From the NCBI GenBank assembly GCA_964016885.1, contig OZ024765.1:16368001-16432000 (forward strand): 64,000 bases of DNA. The letters are read 5' to 3'. The position numbers and the translations under genes were made by a program. Shown in pieces: positions 47,851 through 48,194 of the stretch; position 1 is the first letter of the stretch, and each line of letters starts with the position of its first letter. The stretch is from Eledone cirrhosa (Eukaryota). Below the pieces are notes generated by a model. It did no database searches. It worked only from the letters and a program-made list of their open reading frames with translations, and was not told where the DNA came from.

Positions 47851-48194
47851 ATTTATATATTTATATATATATATATATTTAGCGGCGATGAATTAGTTTT
47901 GCGAGGTTTTTTATATGAAATCGTGTGTCGAAACAGATATTGTTATATTTGGGGAGGGTCATATTTGCGTAATATTGCCAGAGTTAATAACAGAACACAC
48001 TCACTGTTTGGTTGGTTTTCGCTTCTCGCTGTCTTTTATATATATATATCTGCGATCTAACTTACTCGGTCCTCAATGTTGCCATTGACTGACCGGCGGT
48101 CAAAAATAATACAGATACAATATAGACACAAACACATATATATAGTTTACATAATTTACATAAATCTTTCGTTGCACATCTGCAACATCGTCAG

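What the first reader, a model, noticed from the sequence alone, without database searches (positions are those of the whole stretch)
47880..47962. pLTR ends encode a conserved N-terminal peptide, the missing start of the Penelope ORF
Seen: the - strand here translates as [27 protein letters not shown]. The sister family at 34327-34410 gives (V)[27 protein letters not shown], and 39349-39415 gives YNNIGFNTRFQIKNLDK*IQKR. Several differences are synonymous (CCC/CCA, AAA/AAG, CGA/CGT, AAC/AAT, CTC/CTT), while the upstream non-coding pLTRs are far more diverged. The 3' pLTR stops at MTLPKYNNI (51005-51030). Established: PLE 3' pLTRs run into the start of the next ORF. Inference: the true start codon lies downstream of the ORF body, implying a tandem or circularly permuted template. 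Copies end recurrently at TATAACAATAT or CGATAT, AT-rich points that could anneal to (AT)n targets.
Basis: partly seen in the sequence, partly recalled or inferred. Interest (0 to 1): 0.7.

Follow-up and report, generated by a model that had tools for sequence, protein, structure and literature searches.

The report
Penelope element tail encodes protein start
Copies of a Penelope-type jumping gene end in a conserved 9- or 27-codon stretch that is likely the start of their own protein, a feature already described for such elements; the new part is that their reverse transcriptase carries a 70-residue insert at the spot where telomerase has one.

Summary
Observation confirmed. The peptide is at the stated places, and differences between the two families are mostly synonymous (dN/dS about 0.23, p 0.013). 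It belongs to an inverted, 5'-truncated Penelope-like element (PLE) in (AT)n. The 3' pLTR ends at codon 9 (4 copies); the inverted arm runs 55-57 nt further, to codon 27 (3 copies). In a related family the same layout is shown directly: stop, hammerhead-like core, ATG, then 24 residues identical to the N-terminus of the full protein. For this family the peptide-to-ORF join was not seen, and about 245 residues between peptide and ORF body are still missing. This is the known PLE 'tail' (Arkhipova 2013: 12 aa, 22 with tail; Frangieh 2024: two RT start sites inside the next ORF), so the finding itself is not new. Less ordinary: the RT has 131 residues between motifs A and B' (about 61 in canonical PLEs, 118 in human TERT), conserved in 85 relatives, together with a C-terminal GIY-YIG and a Nematis-type linker. 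I found no paper describing that combination, but could not check Repbase or Arkhipova 2006.

The parts
47882..47962 (-). Codons 1-27 of the PLE ORF (inferred), at the end of the inverted pLTR
47880..47936 (-). 'Tail': 55-57 nt extension (codons 9/10-27) present at this end only
47937..48195 (-). Inverted pLTR, 258/259 identical to 50772-51030; its inner end falls at the first base before the hammerhead-like core
48196..48205 (.). About 10 nt of filler at the head-to-head junction; creates a fortuitous in-frame ATG
48206..50510 (+). 5'-truncated, otherwise open ORF: DKSG, RT (SMDV, GAAIG, YVDD), thumb, linker, GIY-YIG. Breaks off inside the conserved LPFNKRV motif
48918..49115 (+). Insert of about 70 aa between RT motifs A and B' (IFD position; limits approximate), with conserved E-L-G-L, C-P-x-R, G-x-x-P-T-I-T, R-W-x-x-W
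50106..50450 (+). C-x4-CxxC-x7-C linker and GIY-YIG endonuclease with two Cys between the VVY and YIG motifs
   Evidence: compared by eye with Fig. S2 of PMC8557442
50511..50771 (+). 3' untranslated region
50772..51030 (+). 3' pLTR: hammerhead-like core 50773-50800, TATA-like 50927, Inr-like CAGT 50961 (promoter role inferred), ATG 51005, ends at codon 9
51031..51330 (.). (AT)n flank, right
47782..47879 (.). (AT)n flank, left
47750..47781 (-). Sister-family fragment of about 32 nt ending at codon 9
34070..34409 (+). Sister-family pLTR with hammerhead-like core (34159) and tail to codon 27; start codon reads GTG here, ATG in two other copies
39139..39345 (-). Sister-family pLTR ending at codon 9, lacking about 90 nt including the hammerhead core
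39346..39416 (+). Tail-only arm (codons 5/6-27, one stop) joined head-to-head to the previous part
16803..17086 (+). Diverged solo pLTR of the main family (77% identical), ending at codon 9

Best explanation
The peptide is likely the first 27 codons of the single ORF of a Penelope-like retroelement, left at element ends because reverse transcription would start inside the next copy's ORF on a tandem read-through RNA. Shown here: the sequence layout (tail + inverted pLTR, filler, truncated ORF, 3' UTR, pLTR ending at codon 9, AT flanks), two recurrent end points (+23 to +26 and +81 to +83 from the ATG), coding constraint, and the same layout with a proven N-terminus in a related family. Inferred from PLE literature: a tandem or partial-tandem source is transcribed from the pLTR through ORF, 3' UTR, hammerhead and into the next ORF; the GIY-YIG domain nicks both strands of an (AT)n tract; each 3' end primes cDNA at one of the two internal sites; the long cDNA from the near site copied pLTR, UTR and ORF until it broke off at 48206; the short cDNA from the far site copied tail and pLTR as far as the hammerhead; the two were joined head-to-head with about 10 filler bases. 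The copy in the window is a truncated, probably dead insertion.
For: Two end classes in 7 of 7 window copies. dN/dS 0.23 (Fisher p 0.013) and 0.25 (p 0.030) for main vs sister copies; the other two sense frames give 1.5 and 2.0; 12 of 18 differences at third positions, p 0.004. A profile from the three window peptides alone, Met column left out, scores the start of 7 close full-length relatives at mean z 3.44 (3.60 with 7 database peptides added); 0 of 300 column shuffles reach that (mean 1.77, sd 0.33); 18 distant relatives sit at the null (1.76-1.86). Six of those 7 fall in the 32-33-member RT subclade that holds the window ORF, among 77 sequences treed; P0120 was too short. L006, 265/281 identical to P0041 in RT, runs stop, hammerhead-like core, ATG, 24 of 24 residues identical to the P0041 N-terminus, then ends in ATATATT. 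L003 has stop, hammerhead core, ATG and the homologous peptide, repeated at the contig head where it runs in frame (one in-frame stop near residue 231) into the N-terminal domain and LPFNKRVCMP. L001, L009, L025, L026 are terminally redundant with the ORF start downstream of the stop; L008 ends about 24 codons into the next ORF and has an inverted hammerhead-bearing piece at its 5' end. Public contigs continue upstream of 48206 with sequence reading PFNKRVCIP, in register with relatives, and one 573-nt contig has 461 nt upstream of a 112-nt exact match. Published precedent: PMC3846280 section 6, PMC11167929, PMC8557442.
Against: No sequence was found in which this family's peptide runs into the N-terminal domain: the read tool skipped 47845-47887 as repeat; all 7 database proteins holding the peptide turn into unrelated sequence after it; the pattern scan of metagenome contigs found 0. 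Pairwise BLASTP of the peptide against the L003 N-terminus gave no alignment. An ungapped scan put the peptide best at the N-terminus in only 1 of 10 close relatives, 3 of which lack that region. The 7 relatives are not independent (P0011, P0056, P0120 are one subgroup), and the profile ranks for P0018 and P0028 are only 9-17 of about 1,100 positions. dN/dS rests on 26 codons; sister vs sister gives 1.86 on 4 differences, consistent with decay. One antisense frame shares the low dN/dS (0.19), as expected from shared third positions. The tail (55-57 nt) is longer than the published 30-40 nt.
Confidence: 0.88

Rival explanations
1. The 27 codons are a separate first exon or upstream ORF, with an intron or frameshift before the main ORF.
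For: PLEs can retain introns (PMC8557442 passages). All three long window copies and the 7 database peptides lose similarity at or before about codon 27.
Against: In relatives the homologous N-terminus is contiguous with the N-terminal domain in unspliced contigs (L003 head; P0041), and a copy of that family still ends at codon 24, so the end point needs no exon boundary.
Confidence: 0.05
2. The stretch is conserved mainly as an RNA signal (protein binding and RT start), and its coding look is secondary or chance.
For: In PAc the first 172 nt of the ORF are needed for insertion (PMC11167929). The first 26 nt are more conserved than the rest.
Against: Third-position excess and protein-level match to N-termini. 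No unusual folding: z 0.12 and 0.04 for the two families. A double role, coding plus signal, is compatible with the best explanation.
Confidence: 0.04
3. Same coding identity, but the template is a circular or permuted monomer made by hammerhead cleavage and ligation, or the inversion arises by self-priming on an antisense template.
For: Terminally redundant contigs with 99-130 nt repeats (L003, L009, L025, L026) could be circles. Hammerhead-like cores lie downstream of the stop in 7 of 30 related loci and 0 of 30 on the antisense strand. The inverted arm stops at the core. Self-priming was proposed in PMC3846280; a weak 5-bp palindrome lies at the 39339-39355 junction.
Against: Such short repeats are also what assemblers give for tandem arrays, and L001 has a 936-nt repeat. 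PAc insertion in vitro did not need hammerhead activity. One window copy lacks the hammerhead. The main junction has no palindrome other than the hammerhead stem itself.
Confidence: 0.15

Closest known systems
Pen2a_Av of Adineta vaga (PMC3846280, section 6 read)
   Same: Inverted pLTR plus optional tail; pLTR holds the first ORF codons (12 aa, 22 with tail); TATA and Inr-like motifs in the pLTR.
   Different: Here 9 and 27 codons, tail 55-57 nt rather than 31; target is (AT)n; no direct 5' pLTR in this truncated copy.
PAc (Poseidon) of Anolis carolinensis (PMC11167929, parts 1-2 of 4 read)
   Same: Two end points inside the next ORF with the tail between them; AT-rich targets; hammerhead in the pLTR.
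   Different: PAc's main start is 111-118 nt into the ORF and its hammerhead overlaps the start codon; here the ends are at about +26 and +81 and the core lies about 230 nt upstream of the ATG.
Nematis clade PLEs (Fig. S1/S2 of PMC8557442, read as text)
   Same: C-terminal GIY-YIG; short linker C-x4-CxxC-x7-C, the spacing of Nematis_C4 and Nematis_Cr; Cys pair between GIY and YIG.
   Different: The two nematode RTs in Fig. S1 that I take to be Nematis (C_remanei, Pristionc) have a canonical short A-to-B' region; here it is about 70 aa longer. Full-length relatives are about 1,050-1,220 aa.
Naiad/Chlamys PLEs and TERT (IFD)
   Same: Extra residues between RT motifs A and B'; (TA)n targets as in Naiads; TERTs are the best structural matches of the model (Z 15.1, rmsd 3.7, 358 aligned).
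   Different: Naiad/Chlamys have an N-terminal endonuclease, mostly lack hammerheads and have shorter inserts. The insert here is predicted as short helices and loops and gave no clear match to a TERT IFD.
Octopus vulgaris predicted proteins (P0001; CAI9729007.1 and others)
   Same: 68% identical RT-EN protein; dozens of gene models of a sister family.
   Different: Annotated as hypothetical proteins; most start at an internal Met 27 residues before LPFNK, and none of those retrieved holds the peptide.

Membership tests
EN+ Penelope-like element | Telomerase-related RT in a single ORF | tested here: met
   One open frame; DKSG and YVDD present; model pLDDT 92.8, best matches TERTs. Pfam RVT_1 only at E 1.7e-4, below its cut-off.
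EN+ Penelope-like element | GIY-YIG endonuclease with CCHH-type motif | tested here: met
   By motif inspection: VVY, C-x4-C, YIG, then R and His residues. Pfam GIY-YIG did not hit this ORF; it hits relative P0063 weakly (E 0.005) and atlas look-alike clusters carry it in 26-58% of members.
EN+ Penelope-like element | pLTRs in direct or inverted arrangement, 5' truncation, optional tail | tested here: met
EN+ Penelope-like element | Minimal hammerhead motif in the pLTR | tested here: met
   CUGANGA-stem II-GAAA in three pLTRs with changed but paired stem II. Motif only: Rfam gathering search gave 0 hits, fold z-scores are unremarkable, cleavage untested.
Nematis clade | Short CX2-5CxxC linker before GIY-YIG | tested here: met
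   C-x4-CxxC-x7-C in the window ORF; 26 of the 47 members (of 117) that matched the pattern have this spacing, all 47 have a 6-10 spacer.
Nematis clade | No insert between RT motifs A and B' | tested here: not met
   131 aa here, median 131 in 85 of 120 relatives, against about 61-67 hand-counted for canonical PLEs in Fig. S1.
Nematis clade | RT phylogeny with named Nematis elements | not testable with these tools
   No named reference proteins were available as usable sequences.
Neptune clade | Long spacer between CxxC and the Cys before GIY | tested here: not met
   7 residues here; about 25-35 in the four Neptune rows of Fig. S2 (by eye).
Naiad/Chlamys | N-terminal endonuclease | tested here: not met
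   The endonuclease is C-terminal.
Hydra clade | CxCX5C linker, DKT, no CCHH, under 3 kb | tested here: not met
   DKS and CxxC linker; definition from PMC8557442 passages.
TERT-type IFD | Position between motifs A and B' | tested here: met
TERT-type IFD | Same fold as the TERT IFD | tested here: inconclusive
   161-aa sub-model (pLDDT 85): best Z 5.9; yeast TERT Z 5.8 at rmsd 12.9 over 113; another TERT chain (6uso) Z 5.3 at rmsd 3.6 over 83; no Foldseek match at E 0.001.

The most novel reading that the evidence does not exclude
This element belongs to an unnamed, widespread marine-animal PLE clade (octopus, sea cucumber, many unnamed marine assemblies) that joins a C-terminal GIY-YIG and a Nematis-type linker to a telomerase-sized, conserved insertion in the RT fingers. 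It would break the published rule that canonical C-terminal-endonuclease PLEs lack an IFD, and its short spacer and two fixed RT start sites 55 nt apart in the first 27 codons make it a compact system for testing two-site priming at (AT)n.
Probability: 0.4. Interest if true: 0.55.

Novelty: new variant of a known kind. Interest (0 to 1): 0.33.

Why it matters
The peptide-in-pLTR feature is known, so the finding as stated mainly helps annotation: it gives the likely true start of an abundant family whose public octopus gene models begin about 245 residues too late, and it extends the two-start-site signature, shown in vitro for one Poseidon element, to a distant lineage with a longer tail. The RT insert matters more if the lineage is unnamed: PLE RTs are the sister group of telomerase, and an insert of TERT size at the IFD position in C-terminal-endonuclease elements bears on whether the IFD is ancestral or was gained several times.

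Tried and rejected
Repeat finder swamped by (AT)n. Rfam gathering search: 0. No RNA holder listed among sequencing runs. Reads: 4 of 24 listed runs laid; tail end skipped as repeat, raw-read run gave 4 reads. Peptide profile search: 31 hits, 7 short proteins with the peptide; the other 24 are long proteins with 3-4 repeated short matches, of which I read one (P0187) and found an unrelated YNNIGL repeat, so all 24 were dropped. Shorter-protein search with P0001 72-200: 11 hits, none with the peptide. DNA pattern in metagenome contigs: 0. Viral contigs: 0 relatives. PDB sequence search: only two weak bacterial RT hits. Atlas on the insert alone: unnamed clusters at 0.89-0.90, not informative. 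Fold searches of the insert region: no clear match, which shows neither a new fold nor a different one. Supplement of PMC8557442 holds neither the peptide nor six motif strings of this lineage. Earlier scan notes: nothing. My first reading, Neptune, was dropped after Fig. S2. The PLE at 34440-36200 was rejected as the peptide's partner: it is Hydra-type and the relatives do not match it. Tree support labels after midpoint re-rooting looked displaced, so I use only subclade membership.

Full report
1. Observation. Seven copies lie in the window: three long (47962-, 34327+, 39349+) and four short (51005+, 47775-, 39164-, 17061+). A 22-nt pattern finds six of them and none in 100 shuffles. Main versus sister family: 8.5 synonymous and 9.5 replacement differences over 26 codons, dN/dS 0.23, Fisher p 0.013; the other sense frames give 1.5 and 2.0. 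Twelve of 18 differences are at third positions (p 0.004). The upstream pLTRs of the two families align barely above shuffles, apart from the hammerhead and the last 45 nt.

2. Anatomy. The RT ORF is on the + strand, so the peptide at 47880 is in an inverted arm. From left to right: (AT)n, tail 47880-47936, inverted pLTR 47937-48195, about 10 nt of filler, ORF body 48206-50510, 3' UTR, pLTR 50772-51030 ending at codon 9, (AT)n. The two pLTRs differ at 1 of 259 bases, so the insertion is young. Public contigs (4 of 24 listed runs laid) continue upstream of 48206 with a stretch that reads PFNKRVCIP, the conserved motif found 265-307 residues into full-length relatives. So the ORF is truncated there and the ATG at the junction comes from filler. 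Summed contig depth in one run rises from about 34,000 at the ORF's 5' end to about 580,000 at its 3' end and 1.2 million over the pLTR end, the pattern of a heavily 5'-truncated, abundant family, though the tool warns this is no copy number. At 39139-39416 the same two-arm logic appears in miniature: one arm ends at codon 9, the opposite arm is almost only the tail. The closest named protein is from Octopus vulgaris (68%), so the host is likely an octopus or near relative (inference).

3. Is the peptide the N-terminus? For this family it was not seen joined to the ORF, and simple pairwise tests are weak or blank. A profile test is positive: peptides from the window alone, Met left out, pick the start of 7 close full-length relatives at mean z 3.44, against 1.77 +/- 0.33 for 300 column shuffles, none reaching it, while 18 distant relatives are at the null. 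The best single case is P0041 (rank 1 of 802 positions). That same family gives the direct proof of the layout: locus L006, 94% identical to P0041 in RT, has after its stop a hammerhead-like core, an ATG and 24 residues identical to the P0041 N-terminus, and then stops in ATATATT. L003 shows the same order in a terminally redundant contig, with the peptide running on into the N-terminal domain. Of 80 loci fetched, most are too short to show either end; L001, L009, L025, L026, L043 show the ORF start downstream of the stop or in a repeated unit, and L008 ends about 24 codons in.

4. Mechanism. Shown: layout, two end classes, coding constraint, the related-family case. Inferred, from PMC11167929 (parts 1-2 of 4 read): a read-through RNA from tandem copies, nicking of both strands in AT-rich DNA, and cDNA starting at two sites inside the next ORF, the tail being the interval between them. 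My addition, also inference, is that the two arms of the inverted insertions here are the two cDNAs, one from each site, joined head-to-head; both two-arm insertions in the window fit (2 of 2). Annealing to (AT)n could help at the near site, where ATAT fits both element and target, but one copy ends in GTAT and the far site cannot be judged without the continuing sequence.

5. Comparison. PMC3846280 section 6 states that the pLTR of Pen2a_Av holds the first 12 amino acids of the ORF and 22 with the tail, at one of the inverted pLTRs, with TATA and Inr motifs. PMC8557442 (passages; supplement parts 54-55 of 59) describes the 30-40 bp tail, inverted 5' copies and (TA)n targets; PMC4209133 (passages) the minimal hammerheads. 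So the finding is known PLE anatomy with a longer tail. The element meets the EN+ PLE features tested. Its linker has Nematis spacing, not Neptune, but I do not file it under Nematis because of the next point.

6. The less ordinary part. The distance from the motif A aspartate to the first glycine of motif B' is 131 residues, with median 131 (91-135) in the 85 of 120 relatives where both motifs were found by pattern and 127-144 in 8 loci. Hand counts from Fig. S1 give about 61 for D. virilis Penelope, about 83 for a Naiad and 118 for human TERT. The insert has conserved Cys, Arg, Gly, Pro and Trp positions and is modelled confidently as short helices and loops. PMC8557442 says canonical PLEs lack the IFD, that Hydra has none, and that IFD-like regions occur sporadically in Coprina. 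Paper searches and supplement searches found no description of a C-terminal-endonuclease PLE with such an insert. The library lacks most subscription papers; I did not see Arkhipova 2006, Repbase, the O. vulgaris TE library, the supplement of PMC13282606 (listed only) or that of the 2026 bioRxiv paper, and any of these may already hold the family. The whole model matches TERTs best, as any PLE should; the insert alone gave no clear match, so the likeness to the IFD is positional only. Other papers seen as passages: PMC13282606 (336 recently active PLE insertions in O. vulgaris), bioRxiv 10.64898/2026.07.22.740005 (lists eight PLE clades), PMC2678813, PMC7619062, PMC3681739; the last three added nothing specific.

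7. Verdict. Observation confirmed, interpretation supported (0.88), phenomenon already in print. Novelty: new variant of a known kind, on the strength of the RT insert and the longer tail. Interest 0.33; 0.55 if the lineage proves unnamed (probability about 0.4).

Noticed in passing
window 48918-49115 (+): Conserved insert of about 70 aa between RT motifs A and B', at the position of the telomerase IFD, in a C-terminal-endonuclease PLE lineage.
   Followed up: partly
window 34440-36200 (-): A second, Hydra-type PLE (CxCx5C linker) with most of the RT core deleted, an inverted repeat and hammerhead-like core at about 34430-34620; it abuts the sister-family pLTR.
   Followed up: partly
window 48196-48205: Junction filler makes an in-frame ATG, leaving 769 open codons with all RT and endonuclease motifs.
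   Followed up: partly
window 39139-39345 (-): This pLTR lacks about 90 nt including the hammerhead core, yet ends at the usual site.
   Followed up: no
window 48195 and L008 1-61: In both inverted insertions with a long ORF arm the short arm's inner end lies at or within about 35 nt of the hammerhead core; n is only 2.
   Followed up: no
window 44933-47452 (-): 839-codon open frame of a LINE-type RT (Pfam RVT_1 E 5e-30), next to the PLE's left flank.
   Followed up: no
window 28300-28670, 39465-40100, 44036-44590: Repeated short 3' fragments of what looks like an RTE-type LINE (label recalled, not tested), each bounded by (AT)n; tandem units at 44036-44590.
   Followed up: no
L001 490-1165: A close relative has a tandem Thr/Ala/Asn/Ser-rich repeat inside an open 1,632-codon frame, reminiscent of the N-rich inserts described in rotifer PLEs.
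   Followed up: no
P0121-P0169: Dozens of O. vulgaris 'hypothetical proteins' are fragments of a sister family starting at an internal Met; one (P0166) is fused in its gene model to a host acetyltransferase-named protein.
   Followed up: no
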